This document shows, piece by piece, positions 29,109 through 42,228 of a DNA stretch of 64,000 bases. Position 1 is the stretch's first letter. The number at the start of each line of letters is the position of its first letter. The translations under genes were made by a program, and so were the position numbers. The notes below the pieces were generated by a model. The model made no database searches. It saw only the letters and a program-made list of their open reading frames with translations, and was not told where the DNA came from. This DNA comes from Nitrospirota bacterium (lineage in GTDB: Bacteria > Nitrospirota > UBA9217), in NCBI GenBank assembly GCA_043731355.1, contig JAYTJE010000024.1:421-64420 (forward strand). Direction: 5' to 3'.

Positions 29109-29173
29109 GCAACCCCCCTCGTTGAGCGCATCATAAATTTTAAGGCAGCCCTCTAAACCCTGCAGCCGTCCTC

Positions 29174-31069
29174 TTACTTCATGCCCACCAGATCATACAC
29201 CACCACCGGGAAATCTTTTCCCTTAACGGTCACACTGTCTAATTCATTCGCGACCACGAGCTCCTTCACCCGCTCATAGGTATATTCCGAGATGATGATA
29301 TGATTATTATACTTTCTTGTCAAGCCTTCCAGCCGCGCGCCGAGATTCACATTGTCGCCAATGACCGTGTAATCCATCTTTTTGCCCAGCGCGCCCATGT
29401 TCCCGACCACCATGTCCCCGGTGTTGATGCCGATGCCGATATCGATAACATACTTGCCCTCGGCCGCCCACTTTGCCTGCAACTTCTTTAATTTCTCGAT
29501 CATGGCAAGAGCGCACCGGCAGGCGCGCTCGGCATGGTCGGGCTGGCCGATGGGCGCCCCCCACAGGACCATGATGGCGTCGCCCACAAACTTATCGAGG
29601 GTCCCTTCGTGTTCGAAGACGATGTCGGTCATGGCCCCCAGATACTCATTCAGCAAAGAGACCACTTCTTCGGGCTGATGCTTCTCGGAAAAGGAGGTAA
29701 AACCGCGGATATCGGAAAAGAGCACCGTGATCTCTTTGCGGTCGCCGCCCAGCTTGGCCTTGCTCGGGTCCCGGATAAGCTCGTCCACAATGCGCTTCGA
29801 CACGTAACTGGAGAACATCTTGCGGATGTCCCGCGCGCGACGCTCTTCCGTGAAGAACCGGTAGGCGGTCTGGCTGGTGTACCCGAAGAACAGCGCCGAG
29901 GCGGGATAGACCAGGTTGAACCAGATCCCTTTGCCCGCAAAGAGGTAGTACACAACACCGCAATAGGACACGAAGAGCGCCAGGAACAGTGCGGCGCCGG
30001 CCTTGGCGCCAAGCCGCGGGATCGCGATGCCGAGGATGATGGCGAACAGAAGGACCAGCGGAACGTCCATGATCGCCGTGCGGTAGATAAAGTCCTCATG
30101 CAGGATATTGTCCACAACGCTCGCATGTTTTTCGATCCCCGCCATGTTGGGCGAGAAGGGCGTGACACGGAGATCGTAAATGCCGATGGCGGTAGCGCCG
30201 ATCAGGACGACCTTGCCCTTGAGCTTCTCCGCCGGCACCAGGCCGTCAAGGATGTCCGCAACAGGATACAGGGGGAACGTGTTGTTCGGGCCCCGGTAGT
30301 TGATGAGCATGCGGCCGAACTCATCGATGGGGATACGGGTATGGTCCAGCTGAACAGCGCCGCTGAAGTCCAGTGCCGCCTGCTCAGGGCTCAGCTCCCG
30401 ATACAACCGCGCGGCCTGCAAACCGATGGGCGGGTAGTAGTCCCCCTGGTACTCAATGGCCAGCGACTCCCACCGGAGGGTGCCGTCGCGATCGGGGACC
30501 ATGTTGATATGGGCAAGGTTTTTGGCGAACGCGGAGAACCGCAACAACGGCGGCAGGACCATCCTTGCCTGGAACGGGTGGAGCGGTTCTCCCGTGTTCC
30601 TGAGCACGGCGAAGGCCGACGGTGTCATGAAATCGAGCTTTTTGTCGGTGAATCCCGACTCCTTGTAGCCCGTTTCGGTAAAATCGAATACCACGGGCAG
30701 GACCACGCGGTTGCTGTGCATGATCGCCTGCTGGAACAGGTCGTCGGATGCGACATTCTCCGGCTCCGCAAAGAACACGTCGAACACGATGACCCGCGCG
30801 CCGAGTTCGGTCAGCCGGTCGACGACCCGGGCCCATACCGAGCGGGGCCAGGGGAACCGGCCGAGCTTATTGATGCTCTTCTCATCAATGGCCGCGATAA
30901 TCGTCTCCGGGCCCGGCGCGATGGCGCCCCGGATATTGAACCGGAAATCAAGCGTTTTTTCCTCCAGCATTTCCATGAAACCAACGTTCATGAGATGCAT
31001 GAGCGAAAGCGCCAGCGCCACAATGAGCGCTATCGTGAGCCCCGCTTTTTTCCCTGTCGTCTGCTTCAT
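29174..31069 (-). CDS. CHASE2 sensor-domain adenylate/guanylate cyclase (class III)
   Basis: CHASE2 hallmarks (FPWPR, VIVFDVFF), TM segments, C-terminal cyclase catalytic domain (FSDIRGFT...GDAIM); start set at MKQTTGKK. Confidence 0.85.
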   Translation of the reverse strand: MKQTTGKKAGLTIALIVALALSLMHLMNVGFMEMLEEKTLDFRFNIRGAIAPGPETIIAAIDEKSINKLGRFPWPRSVWARVVDRLTELGARVIVFDVFFAEPENVASDDLFQQAIMHSNRVVLPVVFDFTETGYKESGFTDKKLDFMTPSAFAVLRNTGEPLHPFQARMVLPPLLRFSAFAKNLAHINMVPDRDGTLRWESLAIEYQGDYYPPIGLQAARLYRELSPEQAALDFSGAVQLDHTRIPIDEFGRMLINYRGPNNTFPLYPVADILDGLVPAEKLKGKVVLIGATAIGIYDLRVTPFSPNMAGIEKHASVVDNILHEDFIYRTAIMDVPLVLLFAIILGIAIPRLGAKAGAALFLALFVSYCGVVYYLFAGKGIWFNLVYPASALFFGYTSQTAYRFFTEERRARDIRKMFSSYVSKRIVDELIRDPSKAKLGGDRKEITVLFSDIRGFTSFSEKHQPEEVVSLLNEYLGAMTDIVFEHEGTLDKFVGDAIMVLWGAPIGQPDHAERACRCALAMIEKLKKLQAKWAAEGKYVIDIGIGINTGDMVVGNMGALGKKMDYTVIGDNVNLGARLEGLTRKYNNHIIISEYTYERVKELVVANELDSVTVKGKDFPVVVYDLVGMK

Positions 31070-31113
31070 ATTCTCTCCTCCAACCCGGACAAACTGGAGC
31101 CAAACCTTTTTAC

Positions 31114-31211
31114 CACGAAGAGCACGAAGTTCACGAAGAGAAAAACTGAACCCCATTATTTAAAAACCAAAAACGAACTCCTTCGTGATTTTCGTGACCT
31201 TCGTGGTAGAT
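31114..31211. repeat. ~98-bp palindromic MITE/REP-like element, copy 1 (TIR TTTTACCACGAAG...CTTCGTGGTA; each arm carries three NNCACGAAG 9-mers)
   Basis: Read directly; a related copy at 57134-57232. Confidence 0.7.
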
Positions 31212-31273
31212 TTTCTGCTCATGTGTGAAGAATTCTATTTTTTAAGTTACTCTGTATCTCCCTTGCCATGACG

Positions 31274-31918
31274 CTACGCCATTTCCCCGAAGATTTCCCG
31301 CATTTCGAGATAGCGGACCAGCTTGTCAACCTGTTCCTGGTTCATGATATGGACCTTGTCCTCACTGAGGTTCACGATCCGGACGCTGGCGAGTTTTTCC
31401 AAAATAGTCCTGGCCTGGGCGGCCTCGATGCCGGCCACGCCGGCAAGGTCGTCGACGGTCATGGTAAACCCGCCGCCCTGTTTGTTGTCACGCACATGCT
31501 TCGCCAGGATGCTCACGAGCCGGCTCGTATTGTCCTTGATCATCAGCGATTCCATCTGGTCGTTGGTCTCGCGCAGCCGGTCGGCAAGCCGTTTGATGAA
31601 CCGGACCGCGATCTCTGCGTTGCCCCTGATCAACGCATCAAAGGTCTTGCGGTCGATCATGAGCATCTCGCATTCTTCGATGGTTTCCGCCGAGGCGGAG
31701 CGGGGCTTGTCGTTCAGTATGGCCATCTCGCCGAAGAACTCGCCCTTTTCAAGCGTTGCCAGCGTCTTTTCCACGCCGCGGATCCGCTTGCTGATCTTCA
31801 CCCTGCCGGACTGCAGGATGTACATTTCCTCGCCCCGGTCGCCTTCGTTAAAGAGCACCGTGCCTGGCGGGATTTTTCTGCCGAATTTTGAATACAGCTG
31901 GACCTGGACCTCGCTCAT
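31274..31918 (-). CDS. Crp/Fnr-family cNMP-binding transcriptional regulator
   Basis: cNMP-binding domain (FGEMAIL...RSASA) plus C-terminal HTH. Confidence 0.8.
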   Translation of the reverse strand: MSEVQVQLYSKFGRKIPPGTVLFNEGDRGEEMYILQSGRVKISKRIRGVEKTLATLEKGEFFGEMAILNDKPRSASAETIEECEMLMIDRKTFDALIRGNAEIAVRFIKRLADRLRETNDQMESLMIKDNTSRLVSILAKHVRDNKQGGGFTMTVDDLAGVAGIEAAQARTILEKLASVRIVNLSEDKVHIMNQEQVDKLVRYLEMREIFGEMA

Positions 31919-31977
31919 ACAAACCCCCTTGGTAGTTGGTCAACGGCCGGAATTACAGTATAGGATAACGGGTAGTA

Positions 31978-33726
31978 TCACCCGCCCACGATCGTAATAT
32001 CGCCCGCTTCACATGCCCGGAGAAAAGCATCCACGATCTCCGGATCATACCACGCGCCGGAGCAGCGCCGGATCTCCCCAGTTGCGGATTTCCAGTCCGC
32101 GGCCTTGCGATAGGGGCGGTCGGTCGTGATGGCATCAAAGGTATCGGCGATCGCAATGATCCGCGCATGGATTGGAATAGTTGCTCCTTTGAGGCCGTCG
32201 GGGTAGCCGCTGCCGTCCCATTTTTCGTGATGGGCGCGCAGGACCTTACTGACATCTTTCATCTGTTTAATATGAACGAGGATGTCCTCGCCCACCAGTG
32301 GATGCTCGCGCATGTGGCAGATTTCCTCGTGAGTGAGCCCGCCCTCTTTGAGCAGCACACTGTCCCTGATTCCGATCTTCCCAATATCGTGCAGCACCGC
32401 CGCCAGGCGGAGCGCCTCCACGTCGTTCAGCGACAGAGACATATGCCGCGCGATCGCCGCGCTGTACTCAACCACCCGCTTGATATGGCCGCCCGTATAC
32501 GGGTCCTTTTTCTCTACCGCGGCCGCGAGCGCCTCGGCCGTGTTAATGAACGTTTCCTTGAGTTCGGCATAGAGATGCGCGTTCTCGAGCGCAACCGCCA
32601 CCTGATTCGCCAGGGTCCAGCAGACTTCGAGGTCGTCTTCGGTAAAAAGCGCACCGTCCTTCTTATTCACGGCCTGGAGTACGCCGATCACGCCTCCCCG
32701 GGAGCGCACGGGCACACAGACCATGTTCCGGGTTATGAAATCCGTGATCGTCTGGGCGCGCCGGAAGTACCGGGGATCATTCTGCACATCATTGATCAGC
32801 GCGGGCTGGTCGTTCGCCGCTACCCAGCCGGCAATGCCCTCGCCCATTTTGAGCCGCATCTGTTTGACCTGCAGCTCCTTTTCACCGAGCGCCACTTCGA
32901 AATAGAGGTCCTTGGTCCGCTCGTCCACGAGCAAAAGCGAGCCCACTTCGGCGCCCAGCAGACTGGTCACCGCCTCGATGGCGCGCTGGCGCACCTCCCG
33001 CTGGTTCAGCGTGGAGTTCAGGACCATGGCAAGCTCCAGCTGCGTTGCCCGGCGCTGCGCCTCCAACCTGCTGCCGGACAGGAGGACCGTGTACGCTACG
33101 TCCAGAGCGAGCTGCCCGGCAAGCGTATCGAGCATTTCCTTGTCTTCCCTGCCAAAGGGCTTGCCGATCGTTTTGTTAATGAGCTCAACCACGCCGATCA
33201 CGCCGCCCGAGGTCGTAAGCGGCGACGCAAGGATATTGCGGGTGGGAAACCGCATCTCCGCGCTGATCTTGCTGCTCCACTTCGTGTCCCTGGCCACATC
33301 GGAGCTCAGATACGTTTTGCCAGTCTTGAACACCCATCCGGCGATGCCTTCGTCAAGCGCCATGCGCCTGCCGATGAGTTTCTGAGCGCCCGGGCCGGCG
33401 CTGGCCCGAAACACCAGGTCCTCGCCGTCATGCATAAGAATGGACCCGGCCGCGGTGTTGGTAAGTTTGAGAATCACGGTGAGATAATTGGAGAGCAGGG
33501 TGTCCAGTTCATCAGGACCGATGTTCTTGCTGGTGAGCAACTCCTGCTTGACCTTCTGAAGCAGGACCATCTTTTTGAGCGCGCTCAGTTCGGCGCGGAG
33601 AGCCGTCTGGTTTTTCCTGGAAACCGATTTTTTCACAACAACCGGTTTCCTTGCCGCCGGCACGATGCGGCGGGACAGGCTCCCCGCCCTCCGGACCTTG
33701 CTGACCGCCTTGCTTTTTTTAGTCGC
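31978..33726 (-). CDS. GAF-GAF-HD-GYP domain phosphodiesterase
   Basis: Two GAF-like regions; HD motif AAVLHDIGK and GYP motif WDGSGYPDGL. Confidence 0.8.
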   Translation of the reverse strand, partial: ATKKSKAVSKVRRAGSLSRRIVPAARKPVVVKKSVSRKNQTALRAELSALKKMVLLQKVKQELLTSKNIGPDELDTLLSNYLTVILKLTNTAAGSILMHDGEDLVFRASAGPGAQKLIGRRMALDEGIAGWVFKTGKTYLSSDVARDTKWSSKISAEMRFPTRNILASPLTTSGGVIGVVELINKTIGKPFGREDKEMLDTLAGQLALDVAYTVLLSGSRLEAQRRATQLELAMVLNSTLNQREVRQRAIEAVTSLLGAEVGSLLLVDERTKDLYFEVALGEKELQVKQMRLKMGEGIAGWVAANDQPALINDVQNDPRYFRRAQTITDFITRNMVCVPVRSRGGVIGVLQAVNKKDGALFTEDDLEVCWTLANQVAVALENAHLYAELKETFINTAEALAAAVEKKDPYTGGHIKRVVEYSAAIARHMSLSLNDVEALRLAAVLHDIGKIGIRDSVLLKEGGLTHEEICHMREHPLVGEDILVHIKQMKDVSKVLRAHHEKWDGSGYPDGLKGATIPIHARIIAIADTFDAITTDRPYRKAADWKSATGEIRRCSGAWYDPEIVDAFLRACEAGDITIVGG

Positions 33727-34549
33727 CATGTCCCGCCAGTACCCCCTGTTTAAGCGCCTTGACGAAGGCCGCGGACTTTTCGACAAGGTCTGGAAAACCG
33801 CCGTTCTCTTCGATCACCTTCACCAGAGCGCTGCCCACGATAACACCGTCGGCGCCCCACCGGGCAACCTGCGCTGCCTGGTCCGGCGTTGAAATGCCGA
33901 ACCCGACAGCCACGGGTTTGTCCGTCATGGATTTGATCCTCGTGAGTGACTCCTGGATCGACTGCTGAAGCCCGGTCCTCGCCCCGGTCACACCGGTCAG
34001 AGAGACATAGTAGACGAATCCCTGAGACAGCTTCGTCACTAATTTTATGCGTTCGTCCGTGCTCGTTGGCGCGAGCAGGAAGATCATATCCAGTCCGGCC
34101 TTCTTCGCCAGCGGGGCAAGGGTCCCTGCTTCTTCAGGCGGCAGATCGGGAAGAATGATCCCGTCCAGACCCGCGGCGACCGCGTCGAGAACAAAGCGTT
34201 CCTCGCCGTAATGAAAAATCAGGTTGTAGTAGGTCATGAGAATGAGCGGTATCCTGCTCACGGTACGCACATCCGTCACCAGCGACAGGACGTCGGCGAT
34301 GCTCGTACCATGCTTGAGCGACCTGATGGCCGCCTTCTGGATCGTCGGCCCGTCGGCCAGAGGGTCGGAAAAAGGAGCGCCGAGCTCGATGATGTCCGCG
34401 CCTGCCTTTTCGAGAGCAAGGACAAGCTGCTTTGTTGCGGCCATATCCGGGTCCCCTGCCATGAGGTAGGGAATGAGGGCAGTTTCGTTCTTTTTCGTGA
34501 GTCGGTTGAACGTGTTTTTTATTCTCGACATAATTTTCCTAAATGACAC
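33719..34549 (-). CDS. trpA: Tryptophan synthase alpha chain
   Basis: TrpA signature LIPYLMAGDP...ELGAPFSDPLADGP. Confidence 0.95.
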   Translation of the reverse strand: MSFRKIMSRIKNTFNRLTKKNETALIPYLMAGDPDMAATKQLVLALEKAGADIIELGAPFSDPLADGPTIQKAAIRSLKHGTSIADVLSLVTDVRTVSRIPLILMTYYNLIFHYGEERFVLDAVAAGLDGIILPDLPPEEAGTLAPLAKKAGLDMIFLLAPTSTDERIKLVTKLSQGFVYYVSLTGVTGARTGLQQSIQESLTRIKSMTDKPVAVGFGISTPDQAAQVARWGADGVIVGSALVKVIEENGGFPDLVEKSAAFVKALKQGVLAGHGD

Positions 34550-34646
34550 TTACCGTTTATAGATTTCTTTCCGATCCGTTCCTTGTTATCAGCATCAAGC
34601 TTCTGAATGTCTTTTACCGCTCTCCTCGTATAGACAAGCTCATACT

Positions 34647-34868
34647 TCATTTACCGAAGACCTCTTTATGGGTCTTCACTCGTCCTGCCTTGTAATCAGC
34701 TCTCGATTCCTTGATACCAACCAGATACTCGGGCGAGGTAGCGGCGAGCAGGTCTTCAAGAAAGACATCCCGCTCTTTCTTTTTCATATCTTTCACAGCT
34801 TTTATTATCTCTTCCTGGGAAACTGTTACTTTGACAGCGCTTAACATTTGGCGCCTCCCTGCGACCAC
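34647..34868 (-). CDS. Small antitoxin-like protein (C-terminus resembles Phd/antitoxin tails), orphan
   Basis: 73-aa ORF; weak family resemblance only. Confidence 0.3.
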   Translation of the reverse strand: MVAGRRQMLSAVKVTVSQEEIIKAVKDMKKKERDVFLEDLLAATSPEYLVGIKESRADYKAGRVKTHKEVFGK

Positions 34869-34876
34869 CGCGTAAC

Positions 34877-35722
34877 CTACCGTACTATCTTATACACTGC
34901 CGTTGCTTCTGTCCAGTCCGTAGGTTCAAGCTGGTTCAGTTTCTTGACCAGGTCGCTGATCATGCCTGTTGACTTCGCATCGTACACCTTGAACATCCCT
35001 TCCTGGAATCCCAGCGGCACGATCGCTTCTTCTTTCCTCGTTGCAATGACTTTTATTCGTTCCTCAGCCACCGTCCCCTTAAAGCTGGGAAGAAACATCG
35101 CCTGCAAACGCACCGGGCTGTTAGCTGGCGGAAATTCGTAGGCTTTCGAAAGCAGCAGCCGGTTGTCCCTGTTCGTCGAGTTCGGCAAGAGCAGCGTCAC
35201 CGAACCGTCAGCCGCGATGGAGAAAATATAAACATAACAGTCGCTGTTCGACTGATAGATGATCGTTGTTTCCTCGCCCTCTTTAAGCACGGATTTTGAG
35301 AGGGCAAGCTTCAGTGACAGGCCCTGGCCCTTCTCCGGGTACACCGGATCGATGAGCGCCCTTATCTTCACCCGGTAGAGATTGCGGTCCTTCTCATCCC
35401 AGCCCTCGGACAGGACGTCCATCTTCTCGATCTTCCCGCGCACCGCCGCATAGACGAGATCGTCGGCAACCTGGAAGTTCGAGACAAGGGTGTGCGACTT
35501 GATGAATGCGCCCACCGCCTGTTCGACCGCCCTGCTCTGGGCATCGCGCTTTGCCCGGTCTTTGACTTCTTTCAGCGTATCATTATCGCTCTGCGATGCC
35601 TCGCCCGTGGCCTCGACCCAAAGCGGCCTGTCCGCGCCGGAGGACAGCAGGGGGATGGCGAGAAATGCAAATATTAAGCAAGCTCTTTTCAAGAATCCCC
35701 CCCTAATCTTTTCCCGGCCCAA
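34877..35722 (-). CDS. Secreted LPP20-like/DUF4384-like protein (family usually paired with peptidase C14 domains)
   Basis: Signal peptide; N-terminal LPP20-like region; C-terminal DUF4384-like region; adjacent to caspase gene with 20-nt overlap. Confidence 0.5.
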   Translation of the reverse strand: MGREKIRGGFLKRACLIFAFLAIPLLSSGADRPLWVEATGEASQSDNDTLKEVKDRAKRDAQSRAVEQAVGAFIKSHTLVSNFQVADDLVYAAVRGKIEKMDVLSEGWDEKDRNLYRVKIRALIDPVYPEKGQGLSLKLALSKSVLKEGEETTIIYQSNSDCYVYIFSIAADGSVTLLLPNSTNRDNRLLLSKAYEFPPANSPVRLQAMFLPSFKGTVAEERIKVIATRKEEAIVPLGFQEGMFKVYDAKSTGMISDLVKKLNQLEPTDWTEATAVYKIVR

Positions 35723-37001
35723 TCAACTGCGGCGTCTGTTCATTGTTGTACTGTTTCCGCGCAATGCGCTCCACCTGGGGCTTCATGTAGCTGTAGATGT
35801 CCTTCACTTTGAGAGAGCCATCAGGCCGCACCACGTCCTCGTTCTTGATGCTCTTCAGGAAAAAGTACGTAAACAATCCATGCCCTTTTTCTTCATAGGT
35901 TGAGCTTATCTGGTCGCCTGATGCTGCGGAAAGGACTGCTATCTTTTGAGGTATTTGCAAACTCTCCATCTGCATTACCAAGGGTCTTGCACCCTTTGCA
36001 AGGACACTCCTGCCGCCCGCGCCTGAAAAGCAGGAATCAAGCGCAACGATGATTTCCTTTGCCTGAAGTTTTCCAAGATTTTCATAGAGCCGCTTTAAAG
36101 AATATCCTGTCTGGTCAATAAATGATGGGTCGCCGTCATAGGGAACAAGGTAGGCATCACCTGTTTTTGGATTCGGCGCGCCGTGTCCTGAATAGTAGAT
36201 AAAAACGGAACTATCTTTTTCGACATTATTCCAGAGCCACTTTTCAAAGTATTTTGCGAAATCTACATTAGTCGCATGCTCATTCAAAAGCGTAACTACA
36301 TTTTCCTCAGGATAGCCCATTACCTTTGTGAGATATTCTGTCATTGTCTGAGCGTCCTGTGTTGCATAATCGGCCTTTGGAAGTTTCTGGCGGTAGTTCT
36401 CTATGCCGATGACTATGGCGAAGGAGTTCTTATTGGGCTTTGCTTTGATTGAAGGGAGCTCATCAACGTCGGATTTGATAGCCGATTTTTCCTCAAAAAC
36501 AGAAGCAATCGGTTTTTTATCCTTTGCATAAAGGTTCTTATATTGCATTTCTTCCGCTTCTCTAAGTATGCGCACGATAACCGTTTGACCTTCTTTTTCT
36601 GCAAGTTGCAATGCCGTTCCCTTGGGGCTGCTTTGTGTGAGGTCAGCTCCCCGTTCAAGCAGGAGTTTCACGACATTTGCATTGCCATTACCAACCGCCA
36701 AATGTATAGGTTTCCAATTGTCCATACCCAAATTGGGATCAGCGCCTTTATCAAGCAAGAGGCGTACTATATCTAAAGAGGCGCAGCACTTATAGAGCAC
36801 CGCCTCATATAAAGGCGTTACACCAAACAGTCCTCGTTCATTCACATCAACGCCTTTATTTAATAGGGCTTCCACCTCTTTAATATCTCCTCCATGTGCT
36901 GCTGTTCCAAGTTGTGTTATTGTTGCACACCCTGTCATCGTCATGCTCAAAACCAGGATAAAGATTACACCGATTAAAAAAACTAAATTATGCCTTTTCA
37001 T
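35703..37001 (-). CDS. Lipoprotein with ankyrin repeats and a C-terminal caspase-like (peptidase C14) domain
   Basis: Lipobox MTGCAT; ~3 ankyrin repeats; catalytic dyad motifs YYSGHGA and DSCFSGAG. Confidence 0.8.
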   Translation of the reverse strand: MKRHNLVFLIGVIFILVLSMTMTGCATITQLGTAAHGGDIKEVEALLNKGVDVNERGLFGVTPLYEAVLYKCCASLDIVRLLLDKGADPNLGMDNWKPIHLAVGNGNANVVKLLLERGADLTQSSPKGTALQLAEKEGQTVIVRILREAEEMQYKNLYAKDKKPIASVFEEKSAIKSDVDELPSIKAKPNKNSFAIVIGIENYRQKLPKADYATQDAQTMTEYLTKVMGYPEENVVTLLNEHATNVDFAKYFEKWLWNNVEKDSSVFIYYSGHGAPNPKTGDAYLVPYDGDPSFIDQTGYSLKRLYENLGKLQAKEIIVALDSCFSGAGGRSVLAKGARPLVMQMESLQIPQKIAVLSAASGDQISSTYEEKGHGLFTYFFLKSIKNEDVVRPDGSLKVKDIYSYMKPQVERIARKQYNNEQTPQLIGPGKD

Positions 37002-37029
37002 CCCCCGCCTCCTACTCTCAAACTTAAAA

Positions 37030-37244
37030 TTATTTATATACGTTCCCTCTGAAATCCACTACATCAACGAAGATTGATTTGGACTCGATACGCGGCTTGA
37101 GGATAATTCTGATTTGCCTTTCCGGATGCGATAATAACCTGCCCAGTCGCCTTTTAATTTCTTAACGTCTATATTAATATTTGAGCCTGTTATCTTAAGA
37201 ATAAAATTTTTGATGGACCTCTCTGACTTTTTCTCTAACCCCAT
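37030..37244 (-). pseudogene. RelE/ParE-family toxin gene disrupted by a frameshift (KGDWAGYYRIRKGK then, in another frame, RIILKPRIESKSIFVDVVDFRGNVYK)
   Basis: Characteristic RelE C-terminal pattern recovered only by switching frame after codon ~46. Confidence 0.5.
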
Positions 37245-37292
37245 GTTCCTCTATAAAATCATCAGCTCTTTTTGAATATTCTACATTCCAGT

Positions 37293-37484
37293 TCATATGT
37301 TTATTGTTTCTGAATGAGCTGATCGTTTTTCCGGCTTTCCATAGTGGACTATAATCTCCCGCATTTCCTTATCAGAAACCTCCGGAAAAAACATAAGCCG
37401 CACTTTTGCTAATTCCTCTTCCAATGCCTCTTTCACCGATTCTTTTATAATAGTTTTTAGCTCCTCATGTCTTACAGTTTGCAT
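37293..37484 (-). CDS. Putative antitoxin (addiction-module component) upstream of the frameshifted RelE
   Basis: 63-aa acidic helical ORF immediately 5' of the toxin remnant. Confidence 0.35.
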   Translation of the reverse strand: MQTVRHEELKTIIKESVKEALEEELAKVRLMFFPEVSDKEMREIIVHYGKPEKRSAHSETINI

Positions 37485-37573
37485 ATCGAGAAACCTCCTT
37501 TCTGCTCCTTCCTATTTCTAAAAGAGCTAAGCCTATTTTATCACAACCAACTGCGGTCTATCTCTCAAATCAC

Positions 37574-39067
37574 CTATCTTTTCTTTCCCCCGAACAACTG
37601 CGGCGTCTGCTCGTTGTTGTACTGCTTCCTGGCAATGCGCTCCACTTGAGGCTTTACATAGCTGTACAGGTCATCGAGCTTGAGTGAGCCATCAGGCCTC
37701 GTTACATCCTCGTTCTTGATGCCCTTCAGCATGAAATACGTGAATAGCCCGTGCCCTTTTTCGTCATAGGTTGAACTGATCTGGTCGCCAGATGAAGCGG
37801 ACAGGACAGTCATATTGATGGGAAGGACAGCGCTGGCATTAAGATTCATTACGAGCGGCCGAGCACCCTTGGCAAGTACAGATCTGCCACCGGCGCCGGA
37901 AAAGCAGGAATCGAGCGCAACGATCACTTCCTTTGCAGGAAGCTTACTTAATGCAGAATACATTCTCTTCAAAGAGTACCCTGTTTCGTCAATAAAGGAC
38001 GGGTCGCCGTCATAAGGCACCAGATAGGCATCCGAGGTCTTGGGATTCGGCGCACCATGGCCGGAATAGTAGACAAAAACTGTACTGTCCTTCTCCACAT
38101 TGTTCGGAAGCCACTTTTCGAAATATTTTACCAAATCGACATTTGACGCATGATCATTCAAGAGTGTAATAACATTCTCTTCCGGATAACCAAGAGCCTT
38201 TGTGAGATAATCCGCTACCAGCTCCGCATCCTGCGTGGCAAAATCTGCTTTCGGAAGCTTCTGGCGGTATTGCTCAATGCCAATTACAATGGCGTAAGAG
38301 TTTTTGTTGTGCTTGACTTTTACCGCGGGGAGTTCGTCAACATCCGATTTGATGGCGGGAGATACTTCTGAAGCAAGGGTTTCAGGCTTGCCTTTAGCAG
38401 AAGCATAGGCGTGTATCTCACTGGAAGAAACCATAAGCTTGACACTCTCTTGTAAAGCAGAAACCATTGCTTTCGCCGCTGCATCCTCAACGCTTCCCTC
38501 GCTACCAGCCGATCCACCAGCCCAATTGAATGTTTTCCCGGCTATCTTAGGCGAACTTACAGTTTTTTCCCATAGCAGTATTCCTTGCTTATCGATAATA
38601 GTATATTTAAGCGAGACGCTCGCCAGTGCTTTAGCAGGCGCATTAAAAGGATTTAAAGAACGAGCTTTTACAAACTCGTAATAGAATTCTCCAATTTCCG
38701 GAGTAATAATAATATCAATGCCTTCTATATCCGGGTTCCCTTTCACTATTGTTACATTGTTAAAAGCATGCAAAAATATAGATGAAGCTCCTTTTTTAAA
38801 CAACTGCCCAAGAGGAAAAGTTCCTGTAAACCCCCAGCCCATCTGTGTTGCAGGCTTCCCGGTAAACGTGATATTTTCGATATTATCCGGCATTAGTAAT
38901 GCTGCATTCAGAGGAATCTTTTGCATAATCATAGGGGGCGGAACAGTAAAGTCAGATGGCACTTTGGCGATATAAGTTGCGCACCCTGTCATCGCCATGC
39001 CCACAAGCAGGATAAAGATTACGCTGATTAAAGAAATTACAGCCTTTGAACCACTCAATCTTTTCAT
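37574..39067 (-). CDS. Lipoprotein with unknown ~220-aa N-terminal domain and C-terminal caspase-like (peptidase C14) domain; paralog of 35703-37001
   Basis: Lipobox MTGCAT; caspase domain nearly identical to the ankyrin paralog (YYSGHGAPNPKT, ALDSCFSGAGGRSVLAKGARPLVM); ATG at 39067 preceded by GGAGG. Confidence 0.8.
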   Translation of the reverse strand: MKRLSGSKAVISLISVIFILLVGMAMTGCATYIAKVPSDFTVPPPMIMQKIPLNAALLMPDNIENITFTGKPATQMGWGFTGTFPLGQLFKKGASSIFLHAFNNVTIVKGNPDIEGIDIIITPEIGEFYYEFVKARSLNPFNAPAKALASVSLKYTIIDKQGILLWEKTVSSPKIAGKTFNWAGGSAGSEGSVEDAAAKAMVSALQESVKLMVSSSEIHAYASAKGKPETLASEVSPAIKSDVDELPAVKVKHNKNSYAIVIGIEQYRQKLPKADFATQDAELVADYLTKALGYPEENVITLLNDHASNVDLVKYFEKWLPNNVEKDSTVFVYYSGHGAPNPKTSDAYLVPYDGDPSFIDETGYSLKRMYSALSKLPAKEVIVALDSCFSGAGGRSVLAKGARPLVMNLNASAVLPINMTVLSASSGDQISSTYDEKGHGLFTYFMLKGIKNEDVTRPDGSLKLDDLYSYVKPQVERIARKQYNNEQTPQLFGGKKR

Positions 39068-39102
39068 AACCCACACCTCCTAATGTCGAAGCCTTTGAAC
39101 AT

Positions 39103-39245
39103 GCACCCTCAGGGTCAGGTCTTGAATCTTGACATTCCCTGGCGGGCGGTAATTTCACCGTTTAAAATGCGTAGACTTGCCGGTTCAAGCTTGCAGCTTG
39201 GACCACATCGTCACTATTTCGGTTCAATCTTCAAGATTGAACCAG
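39103..39245. repeat. ~140-bp island repeat, copy A (ends in perfect hairpin GGTTCAATCTT-c-AAGATTGAACC), upstream of caspase paralog 2
   Basis: ~85% identical to copy B at 40355-40495. Confidence 0.8.
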
Positions 39246-39258
39246 CGAAGCCGGCGGG

Positions 39259-39513
39259 CTATCTCGCTTTCGCCCGTCCACCAGTATGACTGGTAAGTCG
39301 TTGAGTCGAACGGGTTAAATCGAGCAACGACCTCAAGGCCTTGTTCACCGACTCTGAATTACCGAAGGCCTTGGCGACATCCGACTCCAAAACGACTACA
39401 TTCGCGCCTTTTTCAACTAACCGTTTATGATACTTTCCGCGAACGGCTTTCGAATAGTCGAAATCATATTCGGGACACAATTCATCTTTGAGCTTTTGAG
39501 TTTTAGCTTTCAT
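39259..39513 (-). CDS. BrnA-like (DUF4415) antitoxin-family protein
   Basis: EYDFDYSKAVRGKY and C-terminal ...ESVNKALRSLL pattern. Confidence 0.5.
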   Translation of the reverse strand: MKAKTQKLKDELCPEYDFDYSKAVRGKYHKRLVEKGANVVVLESDVAKAFGNSESVNKALRSLLDLTRSTQRLTSHTGGRAKAR

Positions 39514-39743
39514 GCGGCAAATACCTCTTCATGGGCCAGTCGTTTTGCGGCATACAGAAGCGAGGCCTTAATATCGTCGTTTGTAAGAAAAGGATAATCT
39601 TTTTTGAGTGATTCGGCAGTTGCGCCAAAGGCGATTTTTTCGACGATGAGCTCGACCGTCAACCTCGTCCCCTTGATGACAGGCTTGCCGAGCATAATTT
39701 TCGGATCTATAACAATCCGCCTGAGAAGGGTCTCTTCATTCAT
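39510..39743 (-). CDS. DUF433-family protein (antitoxin-like partner of DUF5615)
   Basis: LGKPVIKGTRLTV core motif. Confidence 0.6.
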   Translation of the reverse strand: MNEETLLRRIVIDPKIMLGKPVIKGTRLTVELIVEKIAFGATAESLKKDYPFLTNDDIKASLLYAAKRLAHEEVFAA

Positions 39744-40114
39744 TGCATATCCTCCATCATGGGCATTATTCTGAGTTTTTTTAGCGTTATCACGGTGAAA
39801 TGATTTTGCAGTTTGTCGTAATGCTTTTCAAGAACCTTCTCCATCAATTTAACTTTGTCATCGGAGTTTTGACCCTTCACCCGAAAAAGAATTATTCCGA
39901 CGGACAGCTTTTTTTGTAAGAACGTCAATTCGCCAAAATCCTTGTCATTGGTGATAAGAATTCGTTTTTCTTTCCGTGCAAGTGCCAAGAGATCTTTGTC
40001 GGGAATTTCGCAGTTATAATCGGGAATCCATTTTACATCATATCCACACCCGGCAAGAAAGTCCACGACCGGCTTTTCCATGTTCACGTCCGCCAGGAAT
40101 TTAATTCCGGTCAT
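39740..40114 (-). CDS. DUF5615 / Mut7-C PIN-like nuclease-family protein
   Basis: KFLADVN...GYDV and ILITNDKDFGEL motifs; ATGA overlap with the DUF433 gene. Confidence 0.55.
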   Translation of the reverse strand: MTGIKFLADVNMEKPVVDFLAGCGYDVKWIPDYNCEIPDKDLLALARKEKRILITNDKDFGELTFLQKKLSVGIILFRVKGQNSDDKVKLMEKVLEKHYDKLQNHFTVITLKKLRIMPMMEDMQ

Positions 40115-40283
40115 TGGGTTCCATCTCCCGAGGTTCTGCATCCATCATTTCGCAGAACGCTTTGCGCAAAAGGTTCCCCAGGTAAAGCCATTCAAGCCGC
40201 TTCTCCATCGGCATATCCTGATAGCGCTTTAGTTGCCCTTCAGTCAGCGAATAATCGTTGTAGCGTTTTACCGGTCTCATCAT
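40101..40283 (-). CDS. Hypothetical 60-aa protein, first gene of the DUF5615 module, starting 14 nt after the duplicated trpB 3' end
   Basis: ORF only. Confidence 0.25.
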   Translation of the reverse strand: MMRPVKRYNDYSLTEGQLKRYQDMPMEKRLEWLYLGNLLRKAFCEMMDAEPREMEPNDRN

Positions 40284-40289
40284 TCCGCG

Positions 40290-40354
40290 ATCCGCATTAG
40301 TTACAACTCCACACCCTTGATCTTAGCCACCTGCATCACGTCCTTGTCCCCGCG
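40290..40354 (-). repeat. 65-bp duplicate of the trpB 3' end including its stop codon (64/65 identical to 41027-41091)
   Basis: Direct comparison; would encode ...[17 protein letters not shown]. Confidence 0.85.
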
Positions 40355-40495
40355 AACCCCCTCAGGGTCAGGTCTTTAATATTGACATTCCCTGGAGGGT
40401 AACTTCACCTGTTAAAATGTGCAGTTTTGTTGGTTCACGCTTGCAGCTTGAACCACATCGTTAGTATTTCGGTTCAATCTACAAGATTGAACCAA
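40355..40495. repeat. ~140-bp island repeat, copy B (ends in hairpin GGTTCAATCT-aca-AGATTGAACC)
   Basis: Aligned to copy A. Confidence 0.8.
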
Positions 40496-40513
40496 CTAAG
40501 TGCCCAACATGGA

Positions 40514-40735
40514 CTATAACAACCTTACAAATTCTTCCACACTCATCCCCGCTTGTCTGATAATGGCGCGAAGCGTTCCCCTATCAAGCTCCTTGTGATC
40601 AGGAACAACAACCTGAGCAAAGGGATCATTTCTGCGCAGGATAACGTGACTACCCTCCTGACGTTTGAACTGAAAACCGGCCTTCTCCAGAGCTTTGATG
40701 CAGTCACGCCCTGAAAGTCTCGGCAGCTTGCTCAT
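40514..40735 (-). CDS. hicA: HicA-family toxin (mRNA interferase)
   Basis: 73 aa; LSGRDCIKALEKAGF...GSHVIL pattern. Confidence 0.75.
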   Translation of the reverse strand: MSKLPRLSGRDCIKALEKAGFQFKRQEGSHVILRRNDPFAQVVVPDHKELDRGTLRAIIRQAGMSVEEFVRLL

Positions 40736-40938
40736 ACAGCCACCAGAAGAGCATCAAAATGGTCTTCCGGCACAGGAATTTTATCATCCTCCAGTGCTGC
40801 CACATAGCCACTGATCGCTTCTTTAACATTAGCGATCGCTTCTTCTTTGGTCTTGCCTTGGCTGATGCAGCCAGGCAGACTGGGGCACTCAGCAACCCAA
40901 TAACCATCTTCGCCGGGATGTATAACCACCTGTCTCAT
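40732..40938 (-). CDS. hicB: HicB-family antitoxin (UPF0150)
   Basis: YWVAECPSLPGCISQGKTKEEAIANVKEAI pattern; GGAGGG SD before MRQVVIH. Confidence 0.75.
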   Translation of the reverse strand: MRQVVIHPGEDGYWVAECPSLPGCISQGKTKEEAIANVKEAISGYVAALEDDKIPVPEDHFDALLVAV

Positions 40939-40964
40939 ATTTGGCCCTCCACGTGTTATCAAAC

Positions 40965-41026
40965 GTTTTGCTGGTTTATGCTTGTTGCTTGAACTACATC
41001 GATGCTATTTTACTCCACAATCAAAA
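40965..41026. repeat. Partial, degenerate third copy of the 140-bp island repeat (middle section only) immediately downstream of the trpB stop
   Basis: ~70% identity to the central part of copies A and B. Confidence 0.5.
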
Positions 41027-41037
41027 ATCCGCATTAG

Positions 41038-42228
41038 TTACAACTCCACTCCCTTGATCTTAGCCACCTGCATCACGTCCTTGTCCCCGCGTCCCGAAAG
41101 ATTGCAGATGATCACTTTGTCTTTCCCGAGGGTCGGCGCAAGCTTCAGGCAATAAGCAACCGCATGGGCGCTCTCGAGCGCGGGGATAATGCCTTCGAGG
41201 CGCGACAGGAGGTCGAACGCCTCAAGGGCCTCTTCATCGACGGCATAGGTGTATTCCACGCGGCCGGTGTCGTGATACAGCGCATGCTCCGGTCCTACCG
41301 CGGCGTAGTCCAGCCCGGCGGACACGGAATGGGTCAGCTCGATCTGGCCGTGTTCGTCCTGCAGCACGAAGGTCTTGCAGCCCTGGAGCACCCCGAGGGA
41401 GCCGCCGGCGAAGCGCGCCGCGTGTTTGCCGCGCTCAATGCCGAGGCCGCCCGCCTCGACGCCGTACATCTTTACCCCGGCGTCTTCGAGGAACTCGGAG
41501 AACAGGCCGATAGCGTTCGAGCCGCCGCCCACACAGGCGACCAGCGCGTCAGGCAGCCGGCCTTCAAGTTTCAGGATCTGCTTCTTCGCCTCGCGGCCGA
41601 TCACGGACTGGAAGTCCCGCACCATCATGGGAAAGGGATGGGGCCCGAAGGCCGTGCCGAGCACGTAATGGGTGTTCGCCACGTTCGTGATCCAGTCGCG
41701 CATGGCCTCGTTGATGGCGTCCTTCAAGGTCTTGCTGCCGAGATCGACGGGCCGGACGATCGTGCCGAGGAGTTTCATACGAAAGACGTTCAAGGACTGG
41801 CGCGCCACATCATCGGTGCCCATGTATACTTCGCAATCAAGGCCGAACATGGCGGCTGCCGTGGCAGTCGCAACGCCGTGCTGCCCCGCGCCGGTCTCGG
41901 CGATCACCCGGGTCTTGCCCATGCGCTTCGCCAGCAGCACCTGGGCCAGGGAATTGTTGATCTTGTGCGCGCCGGTATGGGCGAGGTCTTCGCGCTTGAG
42001 GTAGATCTTCGCGCCGCCAAGATGGTCGCTCAGTCGTTTGGCATAATAGAGGGGCGTTGGACGTCCGACGAACTCCCGGAAGTAATAATCGAGCTCGGCC
42101 TGGAAAGCCTTGTCTTTCCTCGCCGCGAGATAGGCTGTTTCCAGTTCAGCTAAAGCCGGCATTAGCGTCTCGGGAGCGAACTTCCCGCCGTAGACGCCGA
42201 AATGTCCCTTTTTATCCGGGATACTCAT
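41038..42228 (-). CDS. trpB: Tryptophan synthase beta chain
   Basis: PLP-binding region HTGAHKINN, 396 aa. Confidence 0.95.

What the first reader, a model, noticed from the sequence alone, without database searches (positions are those of the whole stretch)
35703..39067. Two paralogous periplasmic caspase-domain lipoproteins with swapped N-terminal modules
Both proteins have a lipobox (MTGCAT) and near-identical C14 domains with intact His/Cys dyad motifs (YYSGHG, DSCFSG). The N-terminal ~220 aa differ: ankyrin repeats in one, an unknown domain in the other. They flank a decayed RelE TA pair and sit beside a DUF4384 secreted protein, a family that recurrently accompanies C14 peptidases. Lipoprotein (extracytoplasmic) caspases are poorly characterised, and a role other than intracellular cell death is implied.
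Basis: partly seen in the sequence, partly recalled or inferred. Interest (0 to 1): 0.6.

Follow-up and report, generated by a model that had tools for sequence, protein, structure and literature searches.

The report
Mobile cassette of envelope-anchored caspase proteases
Two caspase-like protease genes carrying lipoprotein export signals, plus a conserved secreted partner protein, form a horizontally moving cassette wedged inside the tryptophan operon; it points to an uncharacterised protease system that works outside the cytoplasm rather than in cell suicide.

Summary
On the minus strand lie CaspB (37574-39067) and CaspA (35703-37001). Each has a signal peptide ending in a lipobox Cys, a variable N-terminal module and a C14 domain with intact His/Cys. 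CaspA's module is ankyrin repeats. CaspB's is a Pfam-less domain whose AF2 model matches outer-membrane lipoprotein folds (DUF330, CsgG, LptE). A secreted 271-aa DUF4384 protein gene follows 10 nt downstream.

Two details are off. The C14 domains are about 74-80% identical (depending on the aligned span) with saturated dS, not near-identical. The 'RelE' remnant has no HMM support.

The pair belongs to a large uncharacterised family in uncultured Nitrospirota, Desulfobacterota and Nitrospinota. In 37 of 47 informative loci, 1-6 lipoprotein C14 genes sit next to one DUF4384 gene. His, Cys and both metacaspase-type S1 Asp residues are invariant in 176-177 members. The C14 and DUF4384 parts are highly conserved, while N-modules (Ank, the OM-lipoprotein fold, TPR+PDZ, others) are shuffled.

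The block is low-GC and sits between trpB and trpA. In three related genomes the cassette junctions carry reiterated copies of the trpB 3' end.

Best reading: an accessory, envelope-anchored, Arg/Lys-directed protease cassette. The swappable modules choose targets, and the DUF4384 partner engages the constant catalytic domain. Whether it is inhibitor or substrate is unresolved. New variant of a known kind.

The parts
37574..39067 (-). CaspB gene (497 aa from ATG 39067; ORF opens at GTG 39076)
   Evidence: identical protein P0001 called on a public contig
38981..39067 (-). CaspB signal peptide and lipobox (MKRLSGSK-AVISLISVIFILLVGMAMTG-C29; Cys codon 38981-38983; +2 Ala)
   Evidence: G-C invariant in 35/35 homologues
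38357..38980 (-). CaspB N-terminal module: no Pfam family. AF2 pLDDT 90.6; fold of OM lipoproteins (DUF330/XCC0632, CsgG, HpaA, LptE, PelC)
38327..38347 (-). Conserved SDVDELP segment preceding the C14 domain (S and first D near-invariant in the family; pLDDT about 78)
37595..38296 (-). CaspB C14 domain: His337 (38057-38059), Cys388 (37904-37906), S1 Asp280 and Asp386, disordered basic loop GGRSVLAKGARP (37856-37891), p10-like SGDQISS (37772-37792). In the 500-aa numbering from the GTG start these are H340, C391, D283 and D389
35703..37001 (-). CaspA gene (432 aa)
36927..37001 (-). CaspA signal peptide and lipobox (Cys25 at 36927-36929). DNA of this segment is 86% identical to CaspB's (dS 0.21 against 1.97 in the C14 part)
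36591..36920 (-). CaspA ankyrin repeats (residues 28-137)
   Evidence: Ank E 9e-19, Ank_2 E 4e-18
35724..36422 (-). CaspA C14 domain: His273 (36183-36185), Cys324 (36030-36032), S1 Asp216 and Asp322; SDVDELP at 36453-36473
34877..35692 (-). Secreted DUF4384 partner gene (271 aa from TTG 35692). It has an SPI-type signal peptide, a weak FlgT_N-like N-domain (35357-35620) and a DUF4384 domain (35033-35287). It starts 10 nt after the CaspA stop, behind a G-rich SD
37059..37484 (-). Small antitoxin-like ORF (37293-37484) plus a frameshifted RelE-looking remnant (about 37059-37290) between the two caspase genes
   Evidence: no HMM support
34550..34868 (-). Second small antitoxin-like ORF (34647-34868) and a truncated toxin-like start (MKYELVYTRRAVKDIQKL...) abutting trpA
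39106..39250 (-). About 145-nt structured repeat, copy 1, immediately upstream of CaspB
40359..40500 (-). About 145-nt structured repeat, copy 2 (partial third copy at 40980-41001)
40290..40354 (-). Duplicate (98%) of the trpB 3' end and stop (the original is at 41027-41091); a cassette junction
39259..40283 (-). TA-type cassette: 60-aa ORF, DUF5615 (PIN-like), DUF433, 84-aa ORF
40514..40962 (-). hicB-hicA TA cassette
41038..42228 (-). trpB (upstream flank of the inserted block)
33719..34549 (-). trpA (downstream flank of the inserted block)

Best explanation
The two genes and the DUF4384 gene form an accessory, horizontally mobile envelope-protease cassette. Each caspase-like protein is exported by Sec and lipid-modified at the lipobox Cys. 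It is most likely tethered to the outer membrane, because the +2 residue is Ala rather than Asp. Its constant C-terminal domain is an active C14B (metacaspase/orthocaspase-type) cysteine peptidase with an acidic S1 pocket, so it should cut after Arg or Lys. It probably needs processing in the conserved, disordered basic loop after the catalytic Cys. The interchangeable N-terminal module decides which extracytoplasmic protein or envelope structure the protease is brought to: ankyrin repeats in CaspA; an LptE/CsgG/DUF330-like OM-lipoprotein fold in CaspB; TPR+PDZ and others elsewhere. The translationally coupled, Sec-secreted DUF4384 protein is the common partner of all paralogues. It acts on the constant catalytic domain, most likely holding it in check as an inhibitor or immunity-type protein. 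Shown: gene anatomy, conservation, fold, operon linkage, module shuffling and mobility. Inferred: lipidation, OM location, Arg/Lys specificity, and the role of the partner and of the modules.
For: Export and lipobox are conserved across unrelated N-modules. The caspase fold and dyad are confirmed. His, Cys and both Asp residues equivalent to TbMC2 Asp95/Asp211 are invariant in 176-177 sequences (pocket residues from PMC6426788). Purifying selection is strong: dN 0.14 against dS about 2. The basic loop GGRSVLAKGARP is near-invariant and has pLDDT <50. One DUF4384 gene accompanies 1-6 caspase genes in 37/47 loci and usually comes last. Its start overlaps the preceding stop by 4 nt in nine loci; in the window the gap is 10 nt. 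The DUF4384 protein is 65-92% identical among the best 120 homologues, which carry Nitrospirota and Desulfobacterota labels where named; this is as conserved as the C14 domain, whereas N-modules are 15-60% identical or unrelated. DUF4384 is known as a protease-associated domain and as the C-terminal domain of some Csx30 proteins, the substrate of the caspase-like Csx29. The N-module fold matches OM lipoproteins. The accessory, mobile character is shown by low GC, by copy number 0-4 at the same trpB-trpA locus in relatives and by junction repeats.
Against: No experiment exists on any member. Every locus recovered comes from a MAG or metagenome assembly. An inhibitor role is not distinguished from a substrate or scaffold role. 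One partner for up to six proteases, and for two C14 subtypes (about 75-89% and about 50-55% identity), is unusual for toxin-immunity pairs. Both partners are strongly conserved rather than diversifying. Ten of 47 loci have the DUF4384 gene without an adjacent caspase, and those orphans are not diverged, so the partner may have a function of its own. The E. coli +2 sorting rule may not apply in these phyla. Ankyrin repeats are uncommon in the periplasm.
Confidence: 0.45

Rival explanations
1. Protease-activated effector. The DUF4384 protein is the shared substrate rather than the inhibitor. Several sensor-proteases, each with a different N-terminal sensing module, converge on it. Cleavage in its conserved interdomain linker (YPEKGQG) would release an active fragment in the envelope. 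This resembles Csx29-Csx30 or the protease-gasdermin operons, but outside the cytoplasm.
For: DUF4384 forms the C-terminal domain of one group of Csx30, the Csx29 substrate. One small conserved gene sits next to 1-6 proteases with repeat or sensor-like modules. A near-invariant Lys-Gly lies in the linker between the FlgT_N-like and DUF4384 domains. The predicted specificity is for Arg/Lys.
Against: No effector-like domain is recognisable in the partner. Orphan DUF4384 genes without adjacent proteases keep all conserved columns. The linker motif could be purely structural.
Confidence: 0.2
2. Housekeeping-type envelope proteolysis. These would be OM-lipoprotein adaptor-proteases for turnover of the cell's own periplasmic or OM proteins, working like NlpI-Prc or LbcA-CtpA but with adaptor and protease fused. 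DUF4384 would be a scaffold or cofactor.
For: TPR, PDZ and ankyrin modules fused to a lipid-anchored protease. The N-module shares a fold with LptE/CsgG/PelC-type OM lipoproteins. The partner has a weak FlgT_N-like, possibly ring-forming, N-domain. Catalytic and partner sequences are very strongly conserved.
Against: Distribution is patchy, composition is foreign, and copy number varies from 0 to 6 even between close relatives at one locus. The genes sit among TA cassettes and N-modules shuffle rapidly. That is not the behaviour of core envelope machinery.
Confidence: 0.2
3. Surface or vesicle-borne nutritional or extracellular protease, degrading environmental proteins like the Arg/Lys-specific gingipains.
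For: Lipid anchor and export signal. Clan CD fold with predicted Arg/Lys specificity.
Against: The modules are specific protein-binding ones rather than carbohydrate- or adhesin-type domains. There is a dedicated conserved partner. The hosts are mostly syntrophic or chemolithotrophic anaerobes. No surface-export motif or T9SS-type C-terminal domain is seen.
Confidence: 0.07
4. Ordinary cytoplasmic cell-death or defence caspases whose hydrophobic N-termini are not functional export signals.
For: The C14 domain gives sub-threshold hits to generic defence-associated caspase models: PADLOC 'caspase' at E 1e-16 to 1e-18, and NCBIfam caspase_w_EACC1 at 87-90 bits against a cutoff of 140.
Against: The lipobox Cys is invariant. 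A signal peptide of SPII or SPI type appears in essentially all complete family members. The partner is also secreted. There are no NTPase, TIR or EACC-type partners.
Confidence: 0.03

Closest known systems
Metacaspases and orthocaspases (MEROPS C14B: TbMC2, Yca1, Microcystis MaOC1)
   Same: Caspase-hemoglobinase fold. His-Cys dyad in SGHG / D-x-C-x-SG motifs. Two S1 Asp residues. An SG-DQ-SS motif that, from my recollection of the metacaspase p10 motif (not aligned here), resembles it. A flexible basic loop after the Cys that could be an autoprocessing site.
   Different: Lipoprotein signal peptide and extracytoplasmic topology. Sequence similarity to solved metacaspases is marginal (E about 3e-3). 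There is a conserved SDVDELP N-terminal segment. The N-modules are Ank, an OM-lipoprotein fold or TPR-PDZ rather than Pro-rich/zinc-finger prodomains. There is a dedicated DUF4384 operon partner.
MALT1 paracaspase and GSU0716 of Geobacter (3bij), the nearest solved structures
   Same: Best Foldseek matches of the C14 part (E 6e-12 to 3e-11; TM normalised to target 0.6-0.7).
   Different: 15-20% identity. MALT1 is a cytoplasmic signalling protease with death and Ig domains. GSU0716 is an uncharacterised structural-genomics target.
OM-lipoprotein adaptor plus periplasmic protease pairs (NlpI-Prc of E. coli, LbcA-CtpA of Pseudomonas); comparison from general knowledge
   Same: A lipid-anchored TPR-type adaptor brings a periplasmic protease to chosen envelope substrates. 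This is the closest analogue for how the cassette would work.
   Different: Adaptor and protease are one polypeptide here. The catalytic type is a C14 cysteine peptidase, not an S41 serine peptidase. There are multi-paralogue arrays and a DUF4384 partner.
Craspase (Csx29-Csx30) and protease-gasdermin operons
   Same: A caspase-like protease is encoded next to a small dedicated partner. DUF4384 is the C-terminal domain of one Csx30 group.
   Different: Those systems are cytoplasmic and RNA- or sensor-triggered. No CRISPR, NTPase or gasdermin gene is present here. Both components here carry export signals.
Colicin/pyocin-type bacteriocins and polymorphic toxins with Tox-Caspase domains (PMC3482391)
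   Same: A C-terminal enzymatic domain with a small gene immediately downstream. N-terminal modules are exchanged by recombination. Delivery is Sec-dependent, with Ank/TPR repeats listed among accessory repeats. There are orphan copies of the downstream gene.
   Different: In polymorphic toxins the C-terminal toxin varies and the N-terminus is constant; here it is the reverse. Immunity function of DUF4384 is untested. The proteins are lipid-anchored.
Gingipains (C25, clan CD)
   Same: Exported clan-CD cysteine proteases specific for Arg or Lys.
   Different: Different family. Gingipains use T9SS secretion with a C-terminal domain, carry haemagglutinin/adhesin domains, have no lipobox and have no DUF4384 partner.

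Membership tests
Peptidase C14 (clan CD, caspase-hemoglobinase fold) | Sequence match to the family profile above the curated threshold | tested here: met
   PF00656: 59.8 and 57.4 bits against a cutoff of 21.4
Peptidase C14 (clan CD, caspase-hemoglobinase fold) | Caspase fold of the catalytic domain | tested here: met
   AF2 model, with most of the C14 core at pLDDT 83-95. Foldseek hits MALT1, GSU0716, metacaspases, CED-3 and caspase-9 at E 6e-12 to 4e-8
Peptidase C14 (clan CD, caspase-hemoglobinase fold) | Catalytic His and Cys in the conserved motifs | tested here: met
   YSGHG and DSCFSG. His in 177/177 and Cys in 176/176 aligned members. The His aligns with the metacaspase SGHG
C14B metacaspase/orthocaspase type | Acidic S1 pocket (equivalents of TbMC2 Asp95 and Asp211) | tested here: met
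   Asp in ATQDA aligns with the metacaspase C-x-x-D Asp. Asp two residues before the catalytic Cys. Both are invariant. Pocket definition from PMC6426788
C14B metacaspase/orthocaspase type | Cleavage after Arg/Lys; calcium or autoprocessing dependence | not testable with these tools
   Needs enzyme assays
C14B metacaspase/orthocaspase type | Presence (metacaspase) or absence (orthocaspase) of a p10 domain | tested here: inconclusive
   The Pfam C14 match runs to residue 494 of 500 and there is an SGDQISS motif, but no p10-specific model was available
Bacterial lipoproteins (SPII substrates) | Positively charged n-region, hydrophobic h-region, and a lipobox with invariant Cys at +1 | tested here: met
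   MKRLSGSK/AVISLISVIFILLVGMA/MTG-C and MKRHN/LVFLIGVIFILVLSMT/MTG-C. G-C is invariant in 35/35. 148/175 pass a strict filter
Bacterial lipoproteins (SPII substrates) | Lgt/LspA-dependent lipidation and cleavage; OM or IM destination | not testable with these tools
   The +2 residue is Ala in 91/148 and Asp in none. The sorting rule is an extrapolation from E. coli
DUF4384 (PF14326) | Profile match above the gathering score | tested here: met
   61.1 bits against 27, residues 146-230 of the 281-aa ORF
Ankyrin repeat proteins | Tandem Ank repeats above threshold | tested here: met
   Ank 66.9 bits, Ank_2 66.2 bits, residues 28-137 of CaspA
DUF330 / LptE / CsgG-type OM lipoprotein fold (CaspB N-module) | Structural similarity | tested here: met
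   Foldseek: 2iqi E 2e-7, TM 0.51/0.59; CsgG E 1e-5 to 1e-3; HpaA, LptE, PelC. The model has pLDDT 90.6
DUF330 / LptE / CsgG-type OM lipoprotein fold (CaspB N-module) | Sequence membership in any of those families | tested here: not met
   No Pfam hit at E<=10 in 21 members. No PDB profile hit. Only 67 representative clusters in 1.8 billion proteins
RelE/ParE toxin-antitoxin pair | Toxin and antitoxin profile matches | tested here: not met
   The frameshift-repaired toxin gives no Pfam hit at E<=1. The antitoxin gives only RelB_like at E 0.074
Known anti-phage defence systems (PADLOC) | Match to a system-specific model set | tested here: not met
   Only PADLOC's generic 'caspase' and 'Ankyrin' models, plus one candidate-system model (PDC-M72A) over the ankyrin region. 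Nothing for the DUF4384 partner
Polymorphic toxin / immunity modules | Constant N-terminal trafficking part with a variable C-terminal toxin | tested here: not met
   The polarity is reversed: variable N-module, constant C14
Polymorphic toxin / immunity modules | The downstream gene neutralises the toxin | not testable with these tools
   Needs co-expression or binding assays
Integron gene cassettes (for the junction repeats) | attC with 5'-RYYYAAC...GTTRRRY-3' cores | tested here: not met
   The 145-nt element reads 5'-GTTGGTTCA...TGAACCAAC-3', so the core order and sequence do not fit. An IntI gene was not searched for

The most novel reading that the evidence does not exclude
This would be an extracytoplasmic conflict cassette of a kind not yet described. 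Lipid-anchored caspase-type proteases with bacteriocin-like swappable targeting modules would act on non-self or invading proteins in the envelope. A single periplasmic DUF4384 protein would serve as universal inhibitor/immunity, or as cleavable effector. The genes would spread as promoterless cassettes by an undescribed site-specific insertion process that reiterates the 3' end of trpB at each junction.
Probability: 0.25. Interest if true: 0.85.

Novelty: new variant of a known kind. Interest (0 to 1): 0.6.

Why it matters
Bacterial caspase homologues are discussed almost only as cytoplasmic death or immunity proteases. Surveys have noted that some carry possible signal peptides (PMC3501461) but left them uncharacterised.

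Here is a large, sharply conserved subfamily that is consistently exported and lipid-anchored. It has a plug-in targeting module and a dedicated secreted partner, which would place caspase-type proteolysis in the cell envelope.

DUF4384 is widespread and fused to proteases and kinases. This cassette gives it a simple, testable two-protein context. The family also illustrates module shuffling across conserved signal-peptide and linker junctions. Finally, the locus shows a cassette-accretion hotspot inside an essential biosynthetic operon.

Tried and rejected
- RelE/ParE identity of the inter-caspase remnant: no Pfam hit even after frameshift repair.
- Homology between CaspB's N-module and the DUF4384 protein: hhalign probability 0.3%.
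- Sequence links of either protein to solved structures: none for the N-module or the DUF4384 profile.
- Known defence system: only PADLOC's generic caspase and ankyrin models, plus a candidate-system model (PDC-M72A) matching the ankyrin region. NCBIfam caspase_w_EACC1 is below its cutoff.
- Integron attC reading of the 145-nt repeat: the core motifs do not fit. Rfam finds nothing in 33.5-42.5 kb.
- Phage or plasmid carriage: no viral contig encodes the partner. There is no plasmid match to the partner, and plasmid C14 matches are 37% identical at best.
- Own promoters or terminators in the block: counts do not exceed shuffles.
- Genes on the plus strand under the cassette: six ORFs, none with a Pfam hit.
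- Recent tandem duplication of the two caspase genes: rejected by saturated dS and by nearest-neighbour analysis.
- A diverged 'orphan' DUF4384 subfamily: rejected, since no discriminating column exists.

Full report
**1. What is in the sequence**

The region holds three co-oriented minus-strand genes.
- CaspB runs from 37574 to 39067 (497 aa from the ATG; the ORF opens at a GTG at 39076).
- CaspA runs from 35703 to 37001 (432 aa).
- A DUF4384 gene runs from 34877 to 35692 (271 aa from a TTG). It starts 10 nt after the CaspA stop, behind a G-rich Shine-Dalgarno.

Both caspase-like proteins match Peptidase_C14 (E 4e-16 and 2e-15). CaspA also has ankyrin repeats at residues 28-137. The third protein matches DUF4384 (E 1e-16) and has a sub-threshold FlgT_N-like N-terminal domain (E 2e-5). 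No plus-strand ORF under the cassette hits any family.

The two proteins share a similar signal peptide ending in MTGC|AT, and a C-terminal 288 aa that is 74% identical. The roughly 150-210 aa in between are unrelated.

**2.

The C14 domains are not near-identical. They are 80% identical at the amino-acid level and 74% at the nucleotide level, with dS about 2 (saturated) and dN 0.14. Neither is the other's closest relative. CaspA's C14 is closest (85%) to C14 domains attached elsewhere to the CaspB-type module. CaspB's is closest (88-89%) to ankyrin-attached ones.

The signal-peptide codons behave differently. Their dS is only 0.21 (22 codons) and the DNA is 86% identical. That suggests recent recombination or gene conversion at the 5' junction.

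The 'RelE pair' between the genes is a 63-aa ORF plus a twice-frameshifted ORF that looks RelE-like by eye. It gives no Pfam hit even after repair.

**3. Catalytic domain**

The AF2 model of CaspB has mean pLDDT 79.5, and most of the C14 core is at 83-95. It matches MALT1 paracaspase, Geobacter GSU0716, fungal, plant and trypanosome metacaspases, CED-3 and caspase-9 (Foldseek E 6e-12 to 4e-8). By sequence, only yeast metacaspases are detected in the PDB (E about 3e-3). That alignment places the SGHG His, and the Asp of ATQDA against the metacaspase C-x-x-D Asp.

I aligned 177 family C14 domains.
- His is present in 177/177 and Cys in 176/176.
- The two Asp residues equivalent to TbMC2 Asp95 and Asp211 are invariant. 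These are the residues that accommodate basic P1 side chains (PMC6426788).

I therefore infer an active C14B-type enzyme that cuts after Arg or Lys. Directly after the catalytic Cys lies a near-invariant basic loop (GGRSVLAKGARP) with pLDDT below 50. It is a candidate autoprocessing site. That step is inference.

**4. Export**

In 35 full-length homologues the lipobox G-C is invariant, while the rest of the N-terminal half is only 15-60% identical. Of 175 family members, 148 pass a strict lipobox filter. Most of the rest are 5'-truncated gene calls or lipoboxes my filter missed, and at least five carry an SPI-type signal peptide. The +2 residue is Ala in 91 and Asp in none. The DUF4384 partner has an SPI-type signal peptide in all 30 aligned homologues.

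Both components are therefore extracytoplasmic by every sequence criterion. Outer-membrane tethering is an extrapolation from the E. coli sorting rule.

**5. The unknown N-module**

It has no Pfam or PDB sequence relative. An exhaustive scan of 1.8 billion representatives finds only 67 clusters. They are stand-alone lipoproteins of about 210 aa, or fusions to C14 or to TPR/PDZ.

Modelled alone, it reaches pLDDT 90.6 and pTM 0.86. Its best structural matches are:
- XCC0632 (DUF330), E 2e-7, TM 0.5-0.6;
- the curli lipoprotein CsgG;
- HpaA, LptE and PelC;
- a chain of the flagellar LPHT ring.

This is the alpha/beta fold of periplasm-facing outer-membrane lipoproteins, several of which form rings or dock to OM machines. 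Profile comparison shows no detectable homology to the DUF4384 protein.

**6. The family and its cassette**

CaspB has more than 4000 homologues. The DUF4384 protein has about 800, and the best 120 are 65-92% identical and about 271 aa long.

Contigs show a recurring operon of one to six lipoprotein C14 genes followed by one DUF4384 gene.
- L004 has six caspases: five Ank-type and one CaspB-type.
- L003 has four.
- L002 has three.

Of 54 genome loci, 47 have at least 1.5 kb of upstream sequence. Among these, 37 have 1-6 adjacent C14 genes. The start of the DUF4384 gene overlaps the preceding stop by 4 nt in nine loci.

All hosts are uncultured: Nitrospirota/Thermodesulfovibrionales, Desulfobacterota (Syntrophales, Smithellaceae, Desulfobacteraceae) and Nitrospinota.

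N-modules in the sample are ankyrin (83), the CaspB type (65) and 29 others. The others include TPR+PDZ, a DUF2846-like module, several further lipoprotein-like modules, and versions with only a short linker. A nearest-neighbour test on the C14 domain finds the same N-module type in only 117 of 177 cases. Modules are therefore exchanged repeatedly across the conserved signal-peptide and SDVDELP junctions.

Two C14 subtypes often co-occur in one cassette: about 75-89% and about 50-55% identity to CaspB.

Ten loci have the DUF4384 gene alone. Four of these (L034, L038, L039, L049; the three with organism labels are Syntrophales/Syntrophaceae) share a hemB-to-polA context. These orphans keep every conserved column.

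**7. Genomic setting**

The block from 34.6 to 41.0 kb has 43-45% GC against 55-61% in the flanks. It separates trpB (41038-42228) from trpA (33719-34549).

The same position is occupied in four relatives.
- L066: two Ank-C14 genes plus a DUF4384 protein 91% identical to the window's.
- L003: four C14 genes.
- L012: one.
- L020: the DUF4384 gene only.

The locus is thus fixed in the lineage while its caspase content turns over. The window's DUF4384 protein is closer to one from a Desulfobacterota MAG (L008, 84% by BLASTP) than to those of the syntenic relatives L003, L012 and L020 (69-80%). Cassette GC stays in a narrower range than host GC. It is up to 9 points below the flanks in GC-rich hosts and up to 5 points above in AT-rich hosts. 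Both points indicate horizontal replacement.

The cassette junctions carry reiterated copies of the last 45-75 nt of trpB.
- Window: two copies, 98% identical.
- L066: three copies.
- L003: three copies.

A structured repeat of about 145 nt is also present (fold z-score -5.3), with two full copies and one partial copy in the window and one copy in L066. The TA cassettes (hicAB; DUF5615/DUF433) and, in L066, a single caspase gene are bracketed by these repeats. The array therefore seems built by successive insertions just downstream of trpB. The element is not a canonical attC, and Rfam has no match.

In L064 and L065 the cassette, with an MNT/HEPN pair, lies between a xerC-like gene and hslVU. 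No viral contig carries the partner, and no plasmid carries a close relative of either protein.

**8. How it most likely works**

Shown:
- exported, lipobox-bearing, catalytically intact C14B-type proteases;
- a constant catalytic domain under strong purifying selection;
- interchangeable N-terminal modules of protein-binding or OM-lipoprotein type;
- a co-translated, secreted, equally conserved DUF4384 partner;
- an accessory, mobile cassette.

Inferred: the proteases are tethered in the envelope. The N-module brings each to a particular extracytoplasmic target. The single partner serves up to six paralogues whose only common part is the C14 domain, so it most likely acts on that domain.

I favour an inhibitor or immunity-type role for the partner (confidence 0.45 for the whole statement), for three reasons:
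- the gene order, with the partner usually last;
- the tight translational coupling;
- the orphan partner genes.

The main rival is that the partner is the shared substrate or effector (0.2). [quoted passage not shown] A housekeeping NlpI-Prc-like role (0.2) fits the TPR/PDZ/Ank adaptors but not the turnover and mobility. A nutritional role (0.07) and a cytoplasmic role (0.03) are unlikely.

**9. Comparison with the known, and novelty**

The proteins meet the tested defining features of Peptidase C14 and of the C14B acidic-pocket type. They also meet the sequence definition of bacterial lipoproteins. They are not members of any PADLOC defence system or of NCBIfam's EACC1-associated caspases.

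A 2012 survey noted N-terminal helices that might be signal peptides in some prokaryotic metacaspases, and speculated on extracellular roles (PMC3501461). Polymorphic-toxin work lists Sec-exported caspase-like toxin domains (PMC3482391).

My full-text searches found no description of this lipoprotein subfamily, its module shuffling or its DUF4384 operon partner.

I rate it a new variant of a known kind. Interest is 0.6: it is not a new fold or chemistry, but it is a coherent, testable, unexpectedly well-conserved envelope caspase system in uncultured anaerobes, with an unusual cassette-accretion locus attached.

Noticed in passing
window 40290-40354 and 41027-41091; L066 6218-6287, 6775-6844, 8522-8591; L003 7595-7639, 8353-8397, 12812-12856: The last 45-75 nt of trpB (with its stop codon) are reiterated at the junctions between inserted cassettes in three related genomes. 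The window pair is 98% identical and older copies are 78-89%. This looks like successive site-specific insertions just downstream of trpB. No recombinase was identified.
   Followed up: partly
window 39106-39250, 40359-40500, partial 40980-41001; L066 8319-8473: A repeat of about 145 nt follows the TA cassettes. It has a long imperfect hairpin of about 70 nt plus a second hairpin (RNA fold z = -5.3). It is conserved in the sister genome, has no Rfam match and is not attC-like. It occurs nowhere else in the window or in 61 other loci.
   Followed up: partly
window 36922-36985 vs 38976-39039: The signal-peptide codons of the two caspase genes are far less diverged at synonymous sites (dS 0.21, 22 codons) than the C14 domains (dS about 2). 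This hints at recent gene conversion or recombination at the 5' module junction.
   Followed up: partly
window 34550-34868: There is a second small antitoxin-like ORF (34647-34868). A truncated toxin-like start (MKYELVYTRRAVKDIQKL...) runs into the trpA start. So TA debris lies on both sides of the caspase/DUF4384 genes.
   Followed up: partly
L034, L038, L039, L049 (DUF4384 gene at about 10 kb in each; 3743-4687 in L034): Four MAGs (three labelled Syntrophales/Syntrophaceae) carry an orphan DUF4384 homologue (58-66% identical) in a conserved hemB ... polA context with no adjacent caspase. The orphans retain all conserved columns of the caspase-linked proteins.
   Followed up: partly
L064 7495-9816 and L065 7496-9816: Here the caspase (with a PF28270 LBF_2127-type N-module) plus the DUF4384 gene, preceded by an MNT/HEPN pair, sit between a xerC-like recombinase gene and hslVU. 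This is another case of the cassette lying between genes I recall as commonly adjacent (xerC and hslVU; this was not checked here). No junction repeats were found there.
   Followed up: partly
L057 9767-10522: A single ORF joins a short caspase fragment (MTEYLTKVMGYPEENVVTLLNEHATNVDFAKYF) to the C-terminal two thirds of a DUF4384 protein. It is probably a deletion scar of a former cassette.
   Followed up: no
L004 7293-16332; L014, L024, L029, L031, L043, L052, L054, L056: Two C14 subtypes (about 75-89% and about 50-55% identical to CaspB) often co-occur in one cassette. The window has two of the first subtype only.
   Followed up: no
window about 28341-33786 (by synteny with L003 and L066): Directly downstream of trpA lies a conserved cyclic-nucleotide signalling cluster. 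It comprises GAF-GAF-HD(-GYP), a cNMP-binding protein, a CHASE2 adenylate/guanylate cyclase, and a metallo-beta-lactamase-fold phosphodiesterase with PDEase_II / Apyc1-like Pfam hits.
   Followed up: no
window 40101-40283: A 60-aa ORF with no family match opens the DUF5615/DUF433 cassette, right after the duplicated trpB end. L066 has a 57-aa gene in the equivalent position.
   Followed up: no
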